25,186 bases of DNA, taken from the UHGV virus genome UHGV-1407433; one strand, given 5' to 3'. This document shows, piece by piece, positions 4,301 through 24,327 of this stretch. Numbering within the stretch: position 1 is the first letter of the stretch; every line of letters starts with the position of its first letter. The stretch comes from a virus. The notes below the pieces were generated by a model that was given only the letters and a program-made list of their open reading frames with translations, had not been told where the DNA came from and did no database searches. The translations under genes were made by a program, and so were the position numbers.

Positions 4301-5193
4301 CCCAGCCCAAAGCGGTCGCTCACCACCAGATCGTAAAAAATCCAGGCTGGATTATCCGTCCACGCCCACTTAAACGCCCCTGTCCATGTGCCGCTGTAGG
4401 TGCGGGTCTCCGGGTCATACGTATCCGGAACGCGGATTACACGCCCTCGCGGTTCGCAGGATATTTGCGGGATAGAGCCGTTAAACTGGCTTGAGTCGAA
4501 TTCGATGTACAGCAGCGCGGTATTTGGATAACGCAGTTTGGCGTCAATAACCTCTGTGTAGCTCTGCAGCGTCATCGTGTCGCCAATTTTCGCGCTGTTG
4601 GCATCCGCCGTAAGCTTACGCAGGCGCACCGTCCATGTACTGCCTGCCTGTGGTAAATCGATACGATGGCTGCGTTCGTAGCCGGAAGTTGTCTTGCCGG
4701 TTACGCTGGTATTAAGTACCGTCTGCCAGGTGCCGCCATCGGTCTGCAGATCAATAGCGTAGTTAATTGAATAGCCAACCAGATCGCCATCATCCTCCTG
4801 TTTAAAAAGCGATGGCCACTTGAGGCGCAGGCGAACGGCTGACAGTTGCGTGTTGGTAAAGGTATGTGTCCAGCCGGTGGTGCTTGACACTTCGGTGCCC
4901 ACGCTGATTTCATTTTCTGTGCCGGGGATACCCTGAATATATTTTTGTGCCTGAGTCCCCGGACGAAATTCCCACGCCACGCCACTGAAGTTTTGCGATC
5001 CGTCTGCATTCTCCAGTGGCGTGCCATCGAGATAGATATCCTTCGCCGTCAACTGCCCTGCAAATTCGCCCTCTCCCAGTGCAACAAGAATTTTGGCTTT
5101 CGCTACGGACTGGAGATCGTCTGGTTGTTCAGTCGGGGTGCGTGAACTGGAGCTGCCGCCCTTGCGGCCTCTAATCGGAGTAGATGTAGCCAT
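1303..5193 (-). CDS. J: Tail tip / host specificity protein J (central tail fibre), 1296 aa
   Basis: ATG at 5193..5191. Long protein at the lambda J position downstream of I. Conserved J-family core (e.g. ...NPAWIFYDLVVSDRFGLG..., ...GTEPRYTCNVYVQERNDAYTVLRDF...) with a divergent C-terminal receptor-binding region. Confidence 0.93.
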   Translation of the reverse strand: MATSTPIRGRKGGSSSSRTPTEQPDDLQSVAKAKILVALGEGEFAGQLTAKDIYLDGTPLENADGSQNFSGVAWEFRPGTQAQKYIQGIPGTENEISVGTEVSSTTGWTHTFTNTQLSAVRLRLKWPSLFKQEDDGDLVGYSINYAIDLQTDGGTWQTVLNTSVTGKTTSGYERSHRIDLPQAGSTWTVRLRKLTADANSAKIGDTMTLQSYTEVIDAKLRYPNTALLYIEFDSSQFNGSIPQISCEPRGRVIRVPDTYDPETRTYSGTWTGAFKWAWTDNPAWIFYDLVVSDRFGLGNRLTAANIDKWTLYQVAQYCDQPVPDGKGGSGTEPRYTCNVYVQERNDAYTVLRDFAAIFRGMTYWGGDQIVALADMPRDVDYSYTRANVVNGRFTYSGSTTKSRYTTALVSWSDPGNAYADAMEPVFEQALVARYGFNQLEMTAIGCTRQSEANRKGRWGILTNNKDRVVSFDVGLDGNIPQPGYIIAVADELLSGKVMGGRISAVNGRVIKLDRVADAAPGDRLILNLPSGASQSRTIQAVNGESVTVTTAYSETPQAEAVWVVESDELYAQQYRVVSVSDNNDGTFSITGAWHDPDKYARIDTGAIIDQRPVSVIPPGNQSPPANIVISSFSVVQQNISVETMRVSWDQAQNAIAYEAQWRRNDGNWVNVPRTSTTSFDVPGIYAGRYLVRVRAINAAEISSGWGYSEEKTLTGKVGNPPKPVGFIASENVVFGIELNWGFQANTDDTLKTEIQYSLTGTEDDAMLLADVPYPQRKYQQMGLKAGQIFWYRAQLVDRSGNESGYTEWVRGQASIDVSDITDVILEEIKDSDTFKDLIENAVDSNEKIAGMADDIKQANDELELQAQEIAKNAQDIGQVQTSVNELSSTVGDVSSSLSDLEQTVATADTALGQRIDSISVSMDGMTGGVKNSAIAIIQNGLAQVATRKRLSATVAGNSAQLDRIDEVIVNEKEATARSLLSLQTDVNGNKASINSLNQTFSDYQQATATQINGITATVNGHTSAITTNAQAIANVNGDLIAMYNIKVGVSSNGQYYAAGMGIGVENTPSGMQSQVIFLADRFAVTTAAGNSVALPFVIQNGQTFIRDSFIQDGTISNAKIGNFIQSNNYVAGSAGWKLNKAGDAEFNNVTVRGTVYASNGSFTGTVYATNGRFTGTVEASSFIGDVANMYTGSDVSRLNNGVLEKTITYNDTSDAAHSRHICVMANVKGFGGCTININGSEKNLSVDGTERLVMHSSAVYSRWVTVKIRVSAQNGMGAYINSPTVIVSRGSGSFSE

Positions 5194-5202
5194 ATTGCGC
5201 CC

Positions 5203-5228
5203 ATAAAAAAGGCCACCCTGAGGTGGCC
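5203..5228 (-). terminator. Intrinsic-terminator-like hairpin between I and J
   Basis: Perfect 7-bp stem GGCCACC / GGTGGCC with 4-nt loop (5211-5228); on the minus strand it is followed by TTTTTT (complement of A-run 5205-5210). Lies 20 nt upstream of the J start codon. Confidence 0.5.
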
Positions 5229-5245
5229 TGAAAGGAGGTTTTTAT

Positions 5246-5836: not shown

Positions 5837-6555
5837 GTTTCACCTGCCATTACATCTTTATAGCGAACGATCTTCATTGTGCGCTCCTGCCAGTATCCGC
5901 CATAAGGAACACGTTGACTCAGATGCCCGTAAAGATGGTGCAGCAGCATGTTACCCTCCAGTAAAATCCCGGCATGATTCCACTTATCGGCCTGCACCTG
6001 CATGATGACGAGGTCCCCTTCCTGAGGCGGACCATCAAACTCCCTGAATCCGCACTCGTACCAGCACTCCTGATAGAAATTGTCCGGGTAGTCGTTTTCC
6101 CACCAGGGATAATCCACCCGGTAATCGTGGAGCTCGATACAGTGGGTCTGCCGGAAATAGCTCATTACCAGACCCCAGCAATCGAAGTGGCCAAGCACGA
6201 ACGGACGCTCCAGCAATGGCAGCTCCCCGCGTGGCTGAATGGTACGTAAATCCCCCTCTGGCCAGCTCACAATATGCCAGGGCAGCAGCGTTGCATCACA
6301 CTGCGCCTTATCCAGCTCGCTGGCCTGCGTCGTCGCATCAGGATGGCTGTGAACAATGGCCACCACCGTCCCCCAGTCTTCTGCCGCTGCGTAATCTTCG
6401 GGGGACAGGTGAAAATGTTCAGTCGGCTCTGCTGCGAGATTACGACAGGGAAAATAGCGCTCAACCCGGCTTTTCTGTGCCACCACGCCGCAGCACTCTC
6501 GCGGATATTCCGCTGCAGCGTGTGCCATGATGGCATCAATGGTTTTCTGGCGCAT
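5824..6555 (-). CDS. K: Tail assembly protein K (JAB/MPN metalloprotease-like plus NlpC/P60-like domains)
   Basis: ATG at 6555..6553 with AGGAG 6 nt upstream, 1 nt after the L stop (the ORF track starts earlier at TTG). Motifs ...ECCGVV... and ...HSHP... fit a JAB/MPN fold. Position between L and I. Confidence 0.85.
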   Translation of the reverse strand: MRQKTIDAIMAHAAAEYPRECCGVVAQKSRVERYFPCRNLAAEPTEHFHLSPEDYAAAEDWGTVVAIVHSHPDATTQASELDKAQCDATLLPWHIVSWPEGDLRTIQPRGELPLLERPFVLGHFDCWGLVMSYFRQTHCIELHDYRVDYPWWENDYPDNFYQECWYECGFREFDGPPQEGDLVIMQVQADKWNHAGILLEGNMLLHHLYGHLSQRVPYGGYWQERTMKIVRYKDVMAGETCRK

Positions 6556-6556
6556 A

Positions 6557-7312
6557 TCAGCTCCTGATAAGAGATGTACCGGGGAAACCGCCAAACGGCA
6601 GCTCGTTGCTGTCTCCGTGCCGGAGCTTGCAGGCCGTCAGCGTGCCGTTGCAGACATCCAGCGATGGATCGTCAACCGGATTATTGTTTTTGTCGAAATA
6701 GCGCGTTCCGGCATAGTCGCAGCCGTCGCCGGTCCGGTACTTGTTCCGGATGCACCAGCTGCATAACGAATGCAGCTGCCGCGTGGGTATCATCTGGCCC
6801 TGTAAATCCATCGGACTGGAAAGCGTAAATTCAACAGATTCATCCGTCTCGGTGCTTCTGGCATCGATATAAAAGACCTTCAGCTTTTCCTGTGACGGGT
6901 CTGCAGTGGGATTGCCCTGCGGAAAATTTCTGGCGTCCAGATACTGTGCCAGCGTGTCGTGGATACTCACTTTCGCCTGCAGCAGATCGTCATACGCCAG
7001 ACAGAGCGCTGAGATCGAGCTGTCCAGGTTCGCCACACTCAGTTTTGGCTGTGGACTGGTACCGTCCGTAGTCGCTTCAATACCCTCAACCTGACACGGC
7101 CAGGCTTTATACTCCTCCCCCTGCCACCAGATGGACTTCGCCGGAAGTTTATTCTCATCCCCGCCTGCAGCCTCAATCTCTTCCGGGGTATGCGCGATAT
7201 TATGTGCGTGGAAGCGGAGTACATCTGACATACCGAACGCTGTGCCATCGACAGAAAAAAGCCGGACTTCATTGCCCGGCTCGAGTTTTTGATAATCAGC
7301 ATTAAGACTCAT
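6557..7312 (-). CDS. L: Minor tail protein L
   Basis: ATG at 7312..7310. 251 aa with a C-terminal Cys cluster (CSWC...C...C) as in lambda gpL. ATGA overlap with M. Confidence 0.9.
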   Translation of the reverse strand: MSLNADYQKLEPGNEVRLFSVDGTAFGMSDVLRFHAHNIAHTPEEIEAAGGDENKLPAKSIWWQGEEYKAWPCQVEGIEATTDGTSPQPKLSVANLDSSISALCLAYDDLLQAKVSIHDTLAQYLDARNFPQGNPTADPSQEKLKVFYIDARSTETDESVEFTLSSPMDLQGQMIPTRQLHSLCSWCIRNKYRTGDGCDYAGTRYFDKNNNPVDDPSLDVCNGTLTACKLRHGDSNELPFGGFPGTSLIRS

Positions 7313-7661: not shown

Positions 7662-10067
7662 TTACCTGCGATTGGTCGCATTCCAGATAAGCCCACCGGG
7701 CTGGATTGCCCTGGCGATACCATCGTTGACAGATTTGTTAATCACCTGCTGATACGCCTTACCCAGCCTGTCTCCGTCGTTTTGCTGCTGTGCGTTACCG
7801 GAAGCATTCTCGACCGTCACCGGGGCATATACACTGACACCGAAAGGTGCTGCAGCCGGGCCTGTACCACCGCCCCCGACATACCCACCCGTGGCATACC
7901 CTTTCATCATCCGGTAAAGATTGCCGACGCCGATCCGGCTGGTAGCCTCTTTGGTGAAAACAAATTCACCACGGTGAACGACACCTGCAGGTTCATATTT
8001 CCCGCCTGAACCGGTATAACCGCCACCTGCAAATCCCAGCGCGGTTGTCGCTGAATCCACCAGGCCTACCATCGCCTGTTTCAGCAGGATCTGTGTCAGC
8101 ATGGAGAGCGTGGAGCGGGTGAAGTCAGCCCAGTCAGCCTTTCCGCGCGTCAGCATGTCAGCCATATTTTGCCCGATGCCATCAAACGCACTGGTGGCAG
8201 CCGACTTCATCTGGCCATAAGCATCTGAAGCAGAATCAACATAATCTGCCCATGCGGATTTGGCTCCGGACTGCCAGTCGTCCCGCAGCTTATCCTGCTC
8301 GGCGTAATACGCCTGCAGCGCCTGCAGCTCATTCTGATAACCAGCATCGTTCTCCGAACCACCACCATTTTTCCAGCCCTGAAGAAGCTGGGCCTCTTCA
8401 TTGCGACGTTGTGCTGCACGACTGCTCATACCAGCACTTTCCGCAAGGGCTCGGGTTTTCTCGCCGATCTGCGTGACGTATTTTTGGGACGTATCCTGCA
8501 GGCGATTAAGCCGCTCCTGCGCCACTATCTGATCGCCGAGCTTCGCATTCAGCTCCGCACGGGAAAGCACCTCACTTTTACTGGCCAGCAGGGATTTTTC
8601 CTCAGCAGAAAGCGTTCGGGTCTTCGCGGCCTCTTCCAGAACCGTAAAGCGGGACTGCTGACGCCACAGCTCCTGACGCTGCTGGCTGATGGTGTCATTG
8701 ATGCTCTTATGCTCCTGCAGGGTGCGCAGCTGTGTCTGTAGCTCCAGCGTCTGGGCACTGGCCGTATCGGTGGCACGGGCACCTGCGGGGGTTCTGATTG
8801 CCGGGGTCTTCTTCGGCTTTTTAAGGGTGTCTTCGTACTCTTTTTTCGCGGCGGCCAGGTTGATGTTGTAGTCAGCCTGGAGGATCCGCCCCTCTTTCAG
8901 AGCCTTATTGAGCTCGCTCTGCCTGGCCGTGTATTTCTCAAGGGCAGTTTGGGTTTTGGCATAGTTGGCCTGAGCCTGCGCGGCATATTTCTGACGATCG
9001 GACTCTGCGACCGCTTCACGGGAAGCATTCTCTTCGTTCGCTTTGGCAATACCAGCCTGCTGCTGCGCCATATCCAGCGCAAGCCTGGCCGTTTCACGAT
9101 CATTCCAGAACCGGGCGCGGGCCTCATCATTCACATAATGATCGCCTTTACGCAGATTCCAGATTTCATCAGCCTTTTTAAACGCGGCCTGGGCTTTTGC
9201 CACCATCTCCTGGGCGGTGTCAGGTCTGCCAATATCAAGTGCAGCATCCCACATCGACTTGAAGGCACGCTTCAGGGAATCCGCTGAAGACTCAATCGTC
9301 CCCATATTGTCGCGGATGGCCTTGGTCTGATCGTTGAATCCGGCAGTAGCAGCCTGATTAGCCGCCTGCAGTGCGCCAGCCTCATCACCGGCACGCTGCA
9401 GCTGTGCCACATGGGCAATCTGTTCGGCCGTAACGTTGTGGAACTGCTGAGCCATCGCGATCAGGCCTGATGTAGGGTCAGTAGTGAGCTTGCCGTATGC
9501 GGCTGCGACTTTTTCCACCGGCACGCCGGAGGCATCAGTAAATCGCGCCACCGCCTGGCTCATTTCATCAAAGCGCGAACTCGCGCCCACCCCCGCGTTG
9601 ATAAGCTCGCTCAGGGCTTCGCTGGTCTGATTGAACGTCAGCCCCGCTGCCTGGCCGTTTCGTGCCAGCGCCAACATACGATCGGCAGTCAATCCGGCCG
9701 TGTTCCCCGACAGTACCAGCGTTTTGTTGAAGTCAGATAGTGTGGATGAGCCCTGGTACCAGGCATAGAACAGCGCACCCGTTGCGGCGGACAGCGCACC
9801 GATGCCGACCATCAACGGTGAGATCGTACCCAGTAAGGCCCGGAATGTTGGTATTATCCCGCCAAAGGAGTCCTTAACCTGACCGCCCTGCTGAAGCAGA
9901 ATCAGCCATGGGTTCTGCCCGCCCGCTAGCTGCGTAGCTATATCGGTAAACTGCGCCGGAAGCATACGCATTGCTGCGTTATACTGGCCTATTGAAATAT
10001 TCGAGGTATTCAATACGCTGCAGCGCCGACAGCTGGAACAATGTGACGCTGCTGCCGTTACTTTCAA
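7662..10067 (-). CDS. H: Tail tape measure protein H, 5'-truncated by a deletion; no intact native start (probably defective)
   Basis: Extensive similarity to lambda gpH starting at ...ISIGQYNAAMRMLPAQFTD... which corresponds to about residue 60 of lambda H; C-terminal ...YEPAGVVHRGEFVFTKEATSRIGVGNLYRMMKGYATGGYVG... conserved. The first ~23 codons of the track ORF (TTG start) are G-homologous DNA read out of frame. First in-frame ATG is at 9971..9969, 8 nt after the stop of the G remnant. Confidence 0.8.
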   Translation of the reverse strand: MKVTAAASHCSSCRRCSVLNTSNISIGQYNAAMRMLPAQFTDIATQLAGGQNPWLILLQQGGQVKDSFGGIIPTFRALLGTISPLMVGIGALSAATGALFYAWYQGSSTLSDFNKTLVLSGNTAGLTADRMLALARNGQAAGLTFNQTSEALSELINAGVGASSRFDEMSQAVARFTDASGVPVEKVAAAYGKLTTDPTSGLIAMAQQFHNVTAEQIAHVAQLQRAGDEAGALQAANQAATAGFNDQTKAIRDNMGTIESSADSLKRAFKSMWDAALDIGRPDTAQEMVAKAQAAFKKADEIWNLRKGDHYVNDEARARFWNDRETARLALDMAQQQAGIAKANEENASREAVAESDRQKYAAQAQANYAKTQTALEKYTARQSELNKALKEGRILQADYNINLAAAKKEYEDTLKKPKKTPAIRTPAGARATDTASAQTLELQTQLRTLQEHKSINDTISQQRQELWRQQSRFTVLEEAAKTRTLSAEEKSLLASKSEVLSRAELNAKLGDQIVAQERLNRLQDTSQKYVTQIGEKTRALAESAGMSSRAAQRRNEEAQLLQGWKNGGGSENDAGYQNELQALQAYYAEQDKLRDDWQSGAKSAWADYVDSASDAYGQMKSAATSAFDGIGQNMADMLTRGKADWADFTRSTLSMLTQILLKQAMVGLVDSATTALGFAGGGYTGSGGKYEPAGVVHRGEFVFTKEATSRIGVGNLYRMMKGYATGGYVGGGGTGPAAAPFGVSVYAPVTVENASGNAQQQNDGDRLGKAYQQVINKSVNDGIARAIQPGGLIWNATNRR

Positions 10068-10089
10068 GCAGCTCGCTCTTTAGAAACAT
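9979..10089 (-). pseudogene. G: Remnant of tail assembly chaperone G (36 codons); T region absent
   Basis: ATG at 10089..10087 at the expected place after V. Translation MFLKSELLESNGSSVTLFQLSALQRIEYLEYFNRPV* matches lambda gpG (about 140 aa) only over the first ~27 residues, then reads into H-homologous DNA and stops. Confidence 0.7.
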
Positions 10090-10125
10090 AATTACTCCGG
10101 GGGAACGGGGCTTTCGCCCCGGTTA

Positions 10126-10863
10126 TCAGGAAACAGTGACTTTGCAGATCGCCACAAAGTTACCGTCATTGCTCATTACGATGATCTCGACGGTGCCTGC
10201 CGCCACGCCGGTAACAGTCAGGGTATTGCCGCTGACGGTGACCGTTGCTTTTGACGGATCAGAACTGGCTACGCGGAAAGACTTATCTGAAGCACTTGCT
10301 GGCAGGACAGAAACAACCAGTTGCGTCGTGGCCGCGACAGCCACAGCCGCCGTGGATTTATCCAGGCTGATCCCCGTAACGGCAATCGGCGCGGTACCAC
10401 TGTCTTCGGCCAGCGATGGTTTGCCATTGTTGGTGATTTTTGCCGTGCGGGTCATGACCTCTTTAGACGAGATGGTCTTGCCGAGACTGCTCACCCAGCC
10501 CTTAAAGACATCGACAACACCATTCGGATATTTGATTTTATACCCCTTCACGGTGCCTTCATCGAACCAGTTCACCAGGTCCTGCTGACCGGAATCCTCC
10601 GGCATCCATGCGAGCGTCAGGTTTGTTTCACCGGCTGATTTCTGCCCCTGCATCGTTGATGTCCAGTCGGCATTCTCATCATCGATGTAGGTGTCATCTT
10701 CCGATTCAGCTGTCAGTTCTCCGGGCTGCAGGTCTTTAATCTTTGCCAGGCGCAGCCAGTCAACGTCTGAAAGCGGATTGGCGTATGGATCACCAGTTCC
10801 GGTGTAAACCCAGAGGGTGGTACCAGCACCTTTTGTTGGTGCCAGCGGGTTTGGTGTGGCCAT
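10126..10863 (-). CDS. V: Major tail protein V (with C-terminal Ig-like domain)
   Basis: ATG at 10863..10861. 245 aa, ...[26 protein letters not shown]...FKGWVSS... closely resembles lambda gpV. Confidence 0.95.
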
Positions 10864-12193: not shown

Positions 12194-12619
12194 TCAGACT
12201 TCGAAAGCCAGCCCCTTTGCGATCAAGTCGTCGGCATCCTGTTCAGATACGCGGATAATCACACCAGGCTCTACGATAGATACCGGCTCGTTACGCGTGG
12301 CATGCAGAGCGTCAATATGCAGGGTGGCCAGCGTTTCTACTGATACCAGGTCACCCGTTGTGGCCGATTCCGTTTTTACTTTTGCCACGTTAGCAACATT
12401 GTTGTCGGTGCTGTCGGTGCTGTCGGTGCTGTCGGTGCTGTCGGAAGCATTCTGCACGCCGTTTTCACCGTCAACTGACCCGGCATTGCCATCCAGTTCC
12501 TCTTCAAGCTCAGCAATACGCATCGTCAGTTCCTGAATGGTGCCGCTGGTACTGACCTCGCGGTTAAGCTGGGTCCCAAGTTCATTCAGGCGGGCGACCA
12601 GCTTTTCTTTTTCTGTCAT
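12194..12619 (-). CDS. FI: DNA packaging protein FI, with a (STD)4 repeat in the inter-domain linker
   Basis: ATG at 12619..12617 with GGAG upstream (the track ORF adds 12 residues). MTEKEKLVARLNELGTQLNREVS... and ...HIDALHATRNEPV... resemble lambda gpFI. Confidence 0.9.
   Translation of the reverse strand: MTEKEKLVARLNELGTQLNREVSTSGTIQELTMRIAELEEELDGNAGSVDGENGVQNASDSTDSTDSTDSTDNNVANVAKVKTESATTGDLVSVETLATLHIDALHATRNEPVSIVEPGVIIRVSEQDADDLIAKGLAFEV
12408..12443. repeat. Perfect 9-bp x4 tandem repeat (GTGCTGTCG on plus strand) inside FI, encoding (STD)4
   Basis: Seen directly at 12408-12443, with a partial fifth copy at 12401-12407. Lies in the Asp/Ser/Thr-rich linker of FI. Confidence 0.9.
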
Positions 12620-12637: not shown

Positions 12638-12655
12638 GTGGCCCGACAGGGCCAC
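12638..12655 (-). other. Stem-loop between E and FI (7-bp GC stem, weak U-tract)
   Basis: GTGGCCC-GACA-GGGCCAC at 12638-12655; on the minus strand it is followed by CTTTCTG, about 15 nt before the FI start. Confidence 0.4.
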
Positions 12656-12664
12656 TGGGGGAAG

Positions 12665-13690
12665 TTATGCCAGTTTGACGGAGACGAATGCGTCAGGGTC
12701 TGGCAGCAGCATCAGCGGAGCTGACTGAATCATGGTGAATTCGCGCGCCGGATCCCCCGACTGCACCCAGTTTTTCGGGTAGCGTGTCGAGGCATTGATA
12801 CCTTCGCGCTGGGCATCAGCATCAAGAATGCAGCCATAGGTACGCAGGCCACGAGCCTGGGTATTCCCCAGCACCATTGTCAGGTCCGGCAGATAATTCT
12901 TTTTGACGTCGTTTTCGACGTACTGGCCGGAGTACACCACGATGGCCACATCGCCAAACATCCCCTTGTATGAAACAGCCATACCCAGGTCTTTCACGGC
13001 AGTTTCCAGCTCAGAGTTAGAACCACGACGCGTATCCAGCTTCTTCTCAACAGCCTTGAAGGAACGGAACAGCGCCCAGCCTTTCGGATCGAACACAATG
13101 ATGTTGACCACACCGCTGGCGTTGAGCGCGTAGGCTTCAATGTCATCGGTCGGGTCATACGTTTCTTTGTCGCGGGTTGACCATGCAGCCGCACCGGCCT
13201 GGACAATGTTGTTACCAGCGCTGCGGCCCATATCGACTTCAACAGGCTCGAACGCTTCCCCGGTCATGGTGTATTTACCGCTGAGCACCGCCGAAACAGC
13301 CTGTTTCTCTTCGACCTGAGCAATCGCCAGCTCTTCATCCTTCATGTTCTGAAGGATAATGCGGCGACGGCGATAGACCGGGTCAGCGAGATTCTGCGGA
13401 TCCTCATCCGGCAGGCGGCGGAGAGTCATCAGTGGGTTAACTTCGTGTTTCGGCTTCACATAACCCGGCGTGAATTCAGACGTGCTGCCGCCACGGGAGC
13501 GGATCACTTTGCCGGAGACAATCGGCGAGACGTAAAGCGCCATATTGACCAGGCCAGGAATTTGCGACAGGTAAACCTTCTCTGTACTGAAGGGATAGGT
13601 TTCGCGGAAAAAGATACGCAGGAAAAGCGGATCGAATTTGAATTTCTTCTCATTGACCGCCAGCAGTTGGGCAGTGGTGTAAACGGACAT
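12665..13690 (-). CDS. E: Major capsid protein E
   Basis: ATG at 13690..13688. 341 aa, same length as lambda gpE and very similar throughout (MSVYTTAQLLAVNEKKFKFDPLFLRIFFRE...). Confidence 0.97.
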   Translation of the reverse strand: MSVYTTAQLLAVNEKKFKFDPLFLRIFFRETYPFSTEKVYLSQIPGLVNMALYVSPIVSGKVIRSRGGSTSEFTPGYVKPKHEVNPLMTLRRLPDEDPQNLADPVYRRRRIILQNMKDEELAIAQVEEKQAVSAVLSGKYTMTGEAFEPVEVDMGRSAGNNIVQAGAAAWSTRDKETYDPTDDIEAYALNASGVVNIIVFDPKGWALFRSFKAVEKKLDTRRGSNSELETAVKDLGMAVSYKGMFGDVAIVVYSGQYVENDVKKNYLPDLTMVLGNTQARGLRTYGCILDADAQREGINASTRYPKNWVQSGDPAREFTMIQSAPLMLLPDPDAFVSVKLA

Positions 13691-13702
13691 AGATTTTTCC
13701 CG

Positions 13703-13725
13703 TAAAAAAAGCCGCGCAAGCGGCT
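13703..13725 (-). terminator. Strong intrinsic-terminator-like hairpin between D and E
   Basis: 6-bp stem AGCCGC / GCGGCT with tetraloop (13710-13725); on the minus strand it is followed by seven T (complement of A-run 13703-13709). Confidence 0.55.
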
Positions 13726-13757
13726 TTTATGAATGATGATGGTTGTAGAAATGCGGA

Positions 13758-14090
13758 TTAAACGATGCTGATTGCAGTACCGGCGAACGCGTTACGTTTA
13801 ATGTTGTCGTCGGTGACGGCAGATGGCCAGAGGACATCTTCAATACGGAAAGAGCCAGATTTGTAATATGCCAGTTCCGCGCTGTTCTGGTCTGCGGTTA
13901 CAGCCAGAACGCCCACAGCCTCGCCAGCATGAGTACCATCCCAGGCGGTCAGCTTGCCAGAGGTAGCATCCAGCATGAGCGGTGTCATGGCTGGGGTGGA
14001 TGCCGTCAGTTCGCCTGGACCATACGCGGTGTGCGCCGGGTCGCTGTTACCAAGCGGCTGGGTATGTGTGAAAACTTCGGTAATTACCAT
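13758..14090 (-). CDS. D: Head decoration protein D
   Basis: ATG at 14090..14088. 110 aa, same length as lambda gpD, ...GNSDPAHTA...AMTPLMLD...[10 protein letters not shown]. Confidence 0.96.
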
Positions 14091-24300: not shown

Positions 24301-24327
24301 AATAAAAAGGGCCGCGATAGCGACCCA
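24301..24327 (-). terminator. Intrinsic-terminator-like hairpin between the methyltransferase gene and the holin
   Basis: On the minus strand: GGGTCGC-TATC-GCGGCCC (7 bp, one G-U) followed by TTTTTATT, about 40 nt upstream of the holin ATG. Confidence 0.5.

What the first reader, a model, noticed from the sequence alone, without database searches (positions are those of the whole stretch)
12638..13725. Major capsid gene E is bracketed by hairpins (strong terminator-like upstream, stem-loop downstream)
Between D and E there is a 6-bp GC stem with tetraloop followed by seven U on the coding strand (13703-13725). Between E and FI there is a 7-bp GC stem with a weaker U-tract (12638-12655). Hairpins on both sides of the most highly expressed late gene suggest RNA processing or stability control, or partial termination that sets stoichiometry among D, E and downstream genes.
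Basis: seen in the sequence. Interest (0 to 1): 0.4.

Follow-up and report, generated by a model that had tools for sequence, protein, structure and literature searches.

The report
Known stem-loops flanking lambda-type capsid gene
The two RNA hairpins on either side of the major capsid gene are real, strongly conserved and already annotated in related phages as putative terminators inside the late operon, but what they do has never been shown by experiment.

Summary
The window is a lambdoid prophage (mEp237/phi80/N15 type) with its late genes on the minus strand. D-E: AAAAGCCGC-UUGC-GCGGCUUUU plus U7, 13728-13704. E-FI: GUGGCCC-UGUC-GGGCCAC, 12655-12638, with a weak U tail.

They are not new. 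GenBank N15 annotates both as "putative rho-indep. transcription terminator", along with two more, after V and before J. Those two are also present in this window. mEp237, HK629 and 434 annotate the D-E site.

Comparison shows selection. In the D-E hairpin the stem, U7 and the E ribosome site are nearly invariant, while the loop has 18 versions. A GC hairpin of unrelated sequence follows the capsid gene in almost every lineage examined, down to 25% protein identity, usually without a U tract. The U-rich terminator before the capsid gene is confined to the lambda-like clade.

Best reading (inferred, confidence about 0.45): Q-modified polymerase reads through. The hairpins then fold in the mRNA just 3' of the high-copy genes D, E and V and slow 3'-exonuclease decay. 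The U7 site also stops unmodified polymerase. Partial termination that sets stoichiometry is less likely. Low interest; already known.

The parts
13758..14090 (-). Gene D (head decoration protein), the cistron immediately 5' of hairpin 1
   Evidence: ORF list; Pfam HDPD, E = 9.5e-21
13704..13728 (-). D-E hairpin: AAAAGCCGC / TTGC / GCGGCTTTT followed by a T7 run. It has the form of a canonical intrinsic terminator and lies 13 nt upstream of the E ATG.
   Evidence: Sequence; fold -13.1 kcal/mol. The homologous site is annotated as a rho-independent terminator in mEp237, HK629, 434 and N15. Stem, T run and RBS are conserved while the loop has 18 variants.
13691..13703 (-). E translation-initiation region ACGGGAAAAATCT (weak Shine-Dalgarno GGGA), at a fixed distance from the hairpin
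   Evidence: Nearly invariant in 21 distinct relatives (alignment A3)
12665..13690 (-). Gene E (major capsid protein, 341 aa)
   Evidence: ORF list; 100% identical to mEp237 major head subunit and 89% to lambda E
12638..12655 (-). E-FI hairpin: GTGGCCC / TGTC / GGGCCAC, tail CTTTCTGG (no real U tract)
   Evidence: Sequence; fold -14.4 kcal/mol. The core GGCCC/GGGCC is invariant in 26 distinct relatives and the two outer pairs covary (G-C/A-U; U-A/C-G). Annotated as a stem_loop in N15.
12194..12619 (-). Gene FI (DNA packaging chaperone), the cistron 3' of hairpin 2
   Evidence: Pfam Packaging_FI, E = 6.9e-54
10106..10121 (-). V-G hairpin CGGGGC / GAAA / GCCCCG directly after the major tail protein gene V (10126-10863). 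It has no U tract and is the same kind of element.
   Evidence: -14.4 kcal/mol; N15 stem_loop at the same place
5204..5229 (-). I-J hairpin AGGCCACC / TCAG / GGTGGCCT plus a T6 run, canonical terminator form, in the 52-nt gap before J (ATG 5193)
   Evidence: -16 to -18 kcal/mol; N15 stem_loop at the same place

Best explanation
These are the known intra-operon, terminator-type stem-loops of the lambda-like late operon. Proposed mechanism: during lytic growth the late promoter fires and Q loads onto RNA polymerase. The Q nozzle prevents the hairpins from forming in the exit channel, so transcription runs through them (shown for lambda and phage 21 Q; inferred for this prophage, whose Q gene lies outside the window). 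Once the RNA has left the polymerase, each hairpin folds in the polycistronic mRNA directly 3' of a high-copy cistron: D, E and, further on, V. There it blocks 3'-to-5' exonucleases after endonucleolytic cuts in the flanking AU-rich spacers. Decay intermediates ending at a hairpin therefore keep D and E translatable for longer than the neighbouring low-copy cistrons (inferred). The D-E element, and the I-J element, have kept a full U tract. They are in addition true intrinsic terminators for polymerase that lacks Q, and act as a backstop against leak-through or spurious transcription of the capsid genes in the lysogen (inferred).
For: Hairpins are present and stable. All four gaps >30 nt in the Nu1-J operon carry one, and three of them directly follow D, E and V. 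From established lambda knowledge, D, E and V are the most abundant virion proteins. A hairpin after the capsid gene is conserved in structure but not in sequence. In 23 sequence clusters of post-capsid regions the median best-hairpin energy is -15.4 kcal/mol. The corresponding median for 369 control segments inside the capsid genes is -8.9 kcal/mol (Mann-Whitney p = 3e-8). Six further phages with 25-32% identical capsid proteins give -15.8 to -23.1, while their own D-E gaps give a strong energy in only one case (AH2, -12.5), and that is a long-range pairing rather than a compact hairpin. Most of these post-capsid hairpins lack a U tract. This argues for an RNA-level role rather than termination. 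In the D-E element the core stem, U7 and RBS are nearly invariant, while the loop has 18 versions among 37 distinct sequences and the spacer to the D stop codon is replaced wholesale. Q blocks hairpin formation in the exit channel (PMC9388147), and mEp237 encodes Q. Terminator hairpins raise upstream mRNA stability (PMC11696848 title and abstract). The backstop logic was argued for the pLS20 conjugation operon from RNA-seq (PMC8191782) and suggested for phage L (PMC8022706).
Against: No 3'-end, half-life or mutational data for these sites were found in the searchable literature. The I-J hairpin does not follow a high-copy gene. An exonuclease barrier needs no U tract, so the strict U7 conservation at D-E needs the second (backstop) role or some other role. 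From memory, not checked here: Sampson et al. 1988 attributed lambda late-gene ratios mainly to translation initiation, which would leave little for mRNA stability to explain. Covariation within the homologous families is weak because the core stems never vary.
Confidence: 0.45

Rival explanations
1. Partial termination (attenuation) during lytic growth. A fraction of polymerases stop at each hairpin, stepping down transcript abundance along the operon and so setting the D: E: downstream stoichiometry.
For: The D-E and I-J elements have full terminator anatomy. Some relatives carry real U tracts after the E-FI hairpin (TTTTTTAT in L082, TTTCTTTT in L081). The phage L paper lists partial termination as one possibility. 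From my own knowledge, T7 has a leaky terminator after its capsid gene.
Against: Q-loaded polymerase is described as an effectively absolute barrier to terminator-hairpin formation. The strongest terminator lies upstream of E, which is needed in amounts equal to D. The U tract after E is absent in the window and in most lineages.
Confidence: 0.15
2. Backstop or insulator only. The hairpins matter only when Q is absent. They stop leak-through from the late promoter's terminator or spurious initiation, keeping capsid genes silent in the lysogen, and have no role in lytic mRNA.
For: Canonical hairpin plus a T run of >=5 is present before the capsid gene in 11 of 17 cluster representatives, all of them lambda-like phages or prophages in bacterial genomes. 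It is absent from all nine other lineages examined, seven of them Casjensviridae by their taxonomy lines or by Chi-type similarity. Precedents: pLS20 and Tn916 (abstract).
Against: It does not explain the U-less hairpins after E and V, nor why a post-capsid hairpin persists in phage lineages that are not lambdoid. The clade restriction could simply reflect shared ancestry.
Confidence: 0.2
3. Translation element. The hairpin isolates the E ribosome-binding site from upstream structure, and the U run next to the Shine-Dalgarno acts as a ribosomal protein S1 / standby enhancer for the very heavily translated E. Alternatively, hairpin 2 together with its flanks occludes the FI Shine-Dalgarno and so couples FI translation to E translation.
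For: The hairpin-to-ATG spacing is fixed, whereas the distance from the D stop to the hairpin varies from about 20 to 32 nt. In all lineages that have the element, the U run ends 2-9 nt before the Shine-Dalgarno. The single-sequence fold pairs CUUC after the E stop codon with the FI GGAG.
Against: The U run is equally present in lineages with a strong GGAG Shine-Dalgarno. The adjacency is also what simple compaction of the gap would give. The consensus fold of 25 relatives supports only the 5-bp core of hairpin 2 and no helix that occludes the Shine-Dalgarno.
Confidence: 0.08
4. Chance palindromes, a DNA-level site, or an RNase III processing site.
For: Single-sequence fold z-scores are only about -2 to -2.7.
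Against: Conservation across dozens of relatives with hypervariable loops. Analogous hairpins of unrelated sequence occupy the same position in distant lineages. The U run is strand-asymmetric, and the G-U pairs work only on the sense strand. The stems of 7-9 bp are far shorter than the roughly 20 bp that RNase III needs (established knowledge). The hairpins are not copies of a dispersed repeat.
Confidence: 0.02

Closest known systems
Stem-loops annotated in phage N15 (GenBank AF064539) after genes 7, 8, 13 and 20; 'rho-independent terminator' between D and E in mEp237, HK629 and 434
   Same: These are the same elements at the same positions: after D, after E, after V and before J. The flanking DNA is 91-97% identical and the stems are the same.
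   Different: Only loop and tail bases differ (N15 D-E loop CTGC against TTGC here; N15 E-FI loop ATTC against TGTC). The database calls are predictions; no activity has been measured.
Lambda D-E (6101-6121) and E-FI (7163-7180) hairpins
   Same: Homologous. D-E: AAAGGCCGC-CTGT-GCGGC + T7 + ACGGGA. E-FI: ATGGCCC-TTCG-GGGCCAT.
   Different: Lambda has a G-U pair in place of an A-U pair in hairpin 1, and a second T7 run before the E ATG. In hairpin 2 it has an A-U base pair where the window has G-C (a compensatory change) and a UUCG loop. The RefSeq lambda record does not annotate either hairpin.
Intercistronic mRNA-stabiliser hairpins in bacterial operons (REP after malE; the pufBA hairpins of Rhodobacter; papA) (from my own knowledge)
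   Same: A GC-rich stem-loop directly 3' of the cistron needed in the highest amount, inside a polycistronic transcript. This is the mechanism I propose here.
   Different: Those cases have measured half-life effects and these do not. The hairpins here are not REP repeats, and the D-E element keeps a full U tract.
Multiple terminators inside operons read by processive antitermination (phage L/P22 late operon; pLS20 conAn conjugation operon; Tn916)
   Same: Intrinsic terminators embedded in a long operon that a modified polymerase reads through. The proposed roles are blocking spurious transcription and differential expression.
   Different: For pLS20, terminator activity and antitermination were measured. 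Here both are inferred, and the antiterminator gene is outside the window.
Terminator after the capsid gene of T7 (T-phi) and after gene VIII of filamentous phages (from my own knowledge)
   Same: A hairpin directly after the major coat protein gene.
   Different: Those are efficient or leaky terminators for a polymerase that is not antiterminated. The E-FI hairpin lacks a U tract and lies in an operon read by Q-modified polymerase.

Membership tests
Intrinsic (rho-independent) terminator: D-E element | GC-rich stem of about 5-14 bp with a 3-8 nt loop | tested here: met
   A 5-bp GC core extendable to 9 bp, tetraloop UUGC, -13.1 kcal/mol
Intrinsic (rho-independent) terminator: D-E element | U tract (about 6-9 U) immediately after the stem | tested here: met
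   U7 at 13710-13704; conserved as T6-T8 in all 37 distinct relatives
Intrinsic (rho-independent) terminator: D-E element | Releases transcripts made by unmodified RNA polymerase | not testable with these tools
   No 3'-end or in vitro data found
Intrinsic (rho-independent) terminator: E-FI element | GC-rich stem with a short loop | tested here: met
   7 bp (6 GC), loop UGUC, -14.4 kcal/mol
Intrinsic (rho-independent) terminator: E-FI element | U tract immediately after the stem | tested here: not met
   The tail is CUUUCUGG (4 of 8 U, longest run 3). Some relatives have U5-U6, most do not. It should be called a stem-loop, not a terminator, in this window.
Elements read through by Q-type processive antitermination | Located downstream of a Q gene and a Q-loading late promoter in the same transcription unit | tested here: inconclusive
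   The window's upstream end shows a methylase, holin and lysozyme but no Q gene or promoter. The closest relative, mEp237, encodes 'late gene regulator Q'.
3' stabiliser (exonuclease-barrier) hairpin | Stable hairpin directly 3' of the protected cistron | tested here: met
   The hairpins start 29 nt (D), 9 nt (E) and 4 nt (V) after the stop codons
3' stabiliser (exonuclease-barrier) hairpin | RNA 3' ends accumulate at the hairpin and the upstream segment has a longer half-life | not testable with these tools
   Needs Northern or 3'-end mapping and a rifampicin chase
RNase III processing site | Double-stranded stem of roughly two helical turns (about 20 bp) | tested here: not met
   Stems are 7-9 bp
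Curated RNA families (Rfam 15) | Match above the family gathering score | tested here: not met
   The only hits are isrK at 17.6 bits against a gathering score of 50, E about 0.9, on both strands. This is noise from the terminator shape.
Dispersed repeat (REP-like) element | Multiple near-identical copies including flanks | tested here: not met
   GGCCC-N4-GGGCC occurs once in the window. The GCCGC-N4-GCGGC matches elsewhere have different loops and flanks.

The most novel reading that the evidence does not exclude
The D-E element may be a regulatory RNA module rather than a passive terminator, in one of two ways. It could be a Q-gated lock whose terminated or processed product (the D 3' end carrying hairpin plus U7, the typical Hfq-binding module) acts as a 3'-derived small RNA. 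Or it could be a platform that tunes E translation. A related speculative reading comes from the 'Q-dependent terminator' idea in PMC9388147 (hairpin, spacer, then U tract). Under it, some post-capsid hairpins with displaced U runs (phage 21: hairpin-UGUC-U6) would terminate only Q-modified polymerase. Nothing here excludes these readings. However, the lambda Hfq RIL-seq preprint reported small RNAs only at tL2a and near the late promoter, and the window's E-FI tail has no long U run.
Probability: 0.07. Interest if true: 0.55.

Novelty: already known. Interest (0 to 1): 0.2.

Why it matters
It matters little as a discovery. The hairpins have been in GenBank annotation since the N15 record, and their possible roles have been discussed in print. 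The remaining value is as a well-defined open question: why do operons read by an antiterminated polymerase keep conserved terminators, and in particular one directly in front of the most heavily expressed gene? The comparative result obtained here sharpens that question into two separately testable elements. A post-capsid hairpin is conserved in structure, without sequence or U tract, across lineages down to 25% protein identity. The pre-capsid U-rich terminator is restricted to the lambda-like clade. The sites are intergenic, so clean hairpin-disrupting and compensatory mutants can be made in lambda.

Tried and rejected
1. The consensus terminator scan missed the D-E hairpin. This is an artefact of stem extension through A-U pairs, not evidence against the hairpin.
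2. Rfam gave only sub-threshold isrK noise.
3. A helix occluding the FI Shine-Dalgarno around hairpin 2 (translational coupling of FI to E) was suggested by the single-sequence fold. The consensus fold of 25 relatives does not support it.
4. A promoter in the D-E gap: no sigma-70-like site there.
5. Dispersed-repeat origin: rejected.
6. An alignment-based locus search failed because there was no conserved peptide stretch. I replaced it with single-protein scans and tblastn.
7. Literature searches for Term-seq, long-read or decay data on lambda late mRNA at these sites found nothing usable. The Liu et al. 2013 ribosome-profiling paper and the Casjens and Hendrix 2015 review are not held.
8. The prophage small RNA HnrS (PMC13502914) lies 'within the late genes'. 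It has its own start site and is restricted to EHEC/EPEC, so it is not this element.
9. Formal covariation is weak. For hairpin 1, 44 of 500 shuffles reach the observed score. For hairpin 2, two pairs show compensatory changes and 0 of 500 shuffles reach the observed score. The case for selection therefore rests on loop-versus-stem contrast and on analogous hairpins in distant lineages, not on covariation.

Full report
**Context.** The window is the late region of a lambdoid prophage, with its genes on the minus strand.
- Megablast gives 97% identity to mEp237, 95.5% to HK225, 94% to phi80 and 91% to N15 over D-E-FI.
- It gives about 80% identity to lambda, over D-E only.
- D is 13758-14090, E is 12665-13690 and FI is 12194-12619. 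These identities are confirmed by Pfam for D and FI, and by 89-100% protein identity to annotated major capsid proteins for E.

**Observation.**
- D-E: AAAAGCCGC / UUGC / GCGGCUUUU (13728-13707), with a run of seven U at 13710-13704. The E start codon follows 13 nt later.
- E-FI: GUGGCCC / UGUC / GGGCCAC (12655-12638), followed by CUUUCUGG.
- Predicted energies are -13.1 and -14.4 kcal/mol, with z-scores of about -2 to -2.7 against shuffles.
- The simple terminator scan missed the D-E site because its stem extension through the A-U pairs removes the U tail. This is a tool artefact.

**Not new.**
- The N15 GenBank record annotates stem_loops as "putative rho-indep. transcription terminator" after gene 7 (D), after gene 8 (E), after gene 13 (V) and before gene 21 (J).
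- The mEp237, HK629 and 434 records annotate the D-E site as a rho-independent terminator.
- Lambda carries both elements: AAAGGCCGC-CUGU-GCGGC-U7, and AUGGCCC-UUCG-GGGCCAU.
- The window also has the other two N15 elements. One is CGGGGC-GAAA-GCCCCG, 4 nt after the V stop codon (10121-10106). The other is AGGCCACC-UCAG-GGUGGCCU-U6 in the I-J gap (5229-5204).
- So every intercistronic gap longer than 30 nt between Nu1 and J holds a GC hairpin. "E is bracketed" describes part of a wider pattern.

**Selection within close relatives.** I used 80 viral contigs and 52 genome loci that encode E at 88% identity or more.
- *D-E element:* the five core pairs are invariant apart from two C-to-U changes that still pair as G-U. 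The T6-T8 run and ACGGGAAAAATCT-ATG are nearly invariant.
- In contrast, the loop has 18 versions among 37 distinct sequences. The spacer between the D stop codon and the hairpin is replaced by unrelated sequences of different length.
- *E-FI element:* the core GGCCC/GGGCC is invariant. The two outer pairs covary (G-C, A-U, G-U; U-A, C-G), and 0 of 500 shuffles reach the observed covariation score.
- The U tail of this element ranges from none to UUUUUU.
- Formal covariation is otherwise weak, because the stems hardly vary.

**Selection across distant lineages.** This is the strongest evidence.
- The phages examined were phage 21 (59% capsid identity), 720R5 (56%), an Aeromonas phage (42%), and Stenotrophomonas, Vibrio and Chi-like phages (30-33%). 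I also examined prophages of marine gammaproteobacteria and pseudomonads (39-44%).
- In all of these the region just after the capsid gene carries a GC hairpin of unrelated sequence.
- Over 23 sequence clusters the median best-hairpin energy is -15.4 kcal/mol. For 369 control segments inside the capsid genes it is -8.9 (p = 3e-8). Nineteen of 23 clusters are at or below -11, against 25% of controls.
- Six more phages (four Casjensviridae, Marinobacter phage PS3 and a Rhizobium phage) give -15.8 to -23.1 after the capsid gene. Their own D-E gaps of 12-61 nt contain no compact stem-loop; one (AH2) reaches -12.5 only through a long-range pairing with a 15-nt loop.
- Most of these post-capsid hairpins have no U tract.
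- The element before the capsid gene behaves differently. It is a hairpin with a T run of 5 or more in 11 of 17 cluster representatives, all of them lambda-like phages or prophages, and it always ends 2-9 nt before the Shine-Dalgarno sequence. It is absent from all nine other lineages.

**Mechanism: what is established.**
- Q proteins form a nozzle on the RNA exit channel that prevents terminator hairpins from forming, and they act over tens of thousands of nucleotides (PMC9388147).
- The closest relative encodes Q.

**Mechanism: what is inferred.**
- I infer that this prophage's late operon is read in the same way. Its upstream end in the window shows only a methylase, holin and lysozyme.
- If so, little termination is expected in lytic growth, and the hairpins exist mainly as structures in finished mRNA.
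- They lie directly 3' of D, E and V, which are the most abundant virion proteins (established lambda knowledge). The post-capsid hairpin is also conserved without a U tract.
- I therefore favour a role as 3'-exonuclease barriers that lengthen the life of the D- and E-encoding segments. I add a backstop role against unmodified polymerase for the two sites that keep a U tract.
- Both ideas have precedents. Neither has been tested at these sites. [quoted passage not shown]

**Rivals.**
- *Partial termination that sets stoichiometry* is disfavoured by Q antitermination, by the strongest terminator lying upstream of E, and by the missing U tract after E.
- *A backstop-only role* does not explain the U-less hairpins or their presence outside the lambdoid phages.
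- *A translational role* is suggested by the fixed hairpin-to-start spacing. However, the U run is present whatever the Shine-Dalgarno strength, and an FI-occluding helix is not conserved.
- *RNase III processing* is excluded by stem length. Chance and dispersed repeats are excluded by conservation.

**Verdict.** The feature is already known and annotated, but its function is still open. Interest is low (0.2).

Noticed in passing
window 7662-10089 (- strand): Gene G stops after 36 codons (9979-10089). The long ORF 7662-10067 matches the mEp237 tape-measure protein only from its residue 48 (98% identity) and does not match G. This implies a deletion of about 0.8 kb that removes most of G, T and the start of H, so the prophage is probably tail-defective.
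   Followed up: partly
window 10106-10121 and 5204-5229 (- strand): There are two further hairpins of the same kind: after the major tail gene V (GAAA loop, no U tract) and in the I-J gap (canonical terminator with T6). With the two hairpins flanking E, they fill every gap >30 nt of the structural operon, and they match the four N15 stem_loop annotations.
   Followed up: yes
L206-L221, L224, L227-L240 (genome-contig loci): Capsid gene hits 88-89% identical to the window's E protein (the same level as lambda E), several with lambda's own E-FI intergenic sequence, occur on short contigs. Where the contig names give coverage it is about 1x. The assemblies belong to unrelated taxa (Neobacillus, Kitasatospora, Chromatium, Paenibacillus, an Akkermansia MAG and others). 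This looks like lambda DNA contamination of the assemblies.
   Followed up: no
window 24309-24326 (- strand): A terminator-like hairpin GGGTCGC-TATC-GCGGCCC plus T5 lies between the DNA methylase gene and the holin gene. It has the same stem as the D-E hairpin of the Trabulsiella prophages (L203/L228: GGGTCGC-CCTG-GCGGCCC).
   Followed up: no
window, whole; e.g. 5155-5168: The pattern GCCGC-N4-GCGGC (up to 1 mismatch) occurs 8 times against 1.9 expected (0 of 100 shuffles reach 8). One exact copy lies 25 nt inside the start of J.
   Followed up: no
L063, L066 (viral contigs): The E homologue matches only residues 1-323 and then continues into unrelated sequence (475-codon ORF). This is likely a truncated prophage end or a chimeric contig.
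   Followed up: no
literature (PMC2147009): A microarray paper notes that an earlier study (Chen et al.) saw high gpE signal in uninduced lambda lysogens, which it did not reproduce. If the signal were real, it would bear on whether E has Q-independent transcription downstream of the D-E terminator.
   Followed up: no
lambda, L003 1630-1663: Lambda has a second T7 run between the E Shine-Dalgarno and the ATG (hairpin-T7-ACGGGA-T7-ATG), where the window has A5TCT. The hairpin, spacer, U-tract layout resembles the hypothetical 'Q-dependent terminator' discussed in PMC9388147.
   Followed up: no
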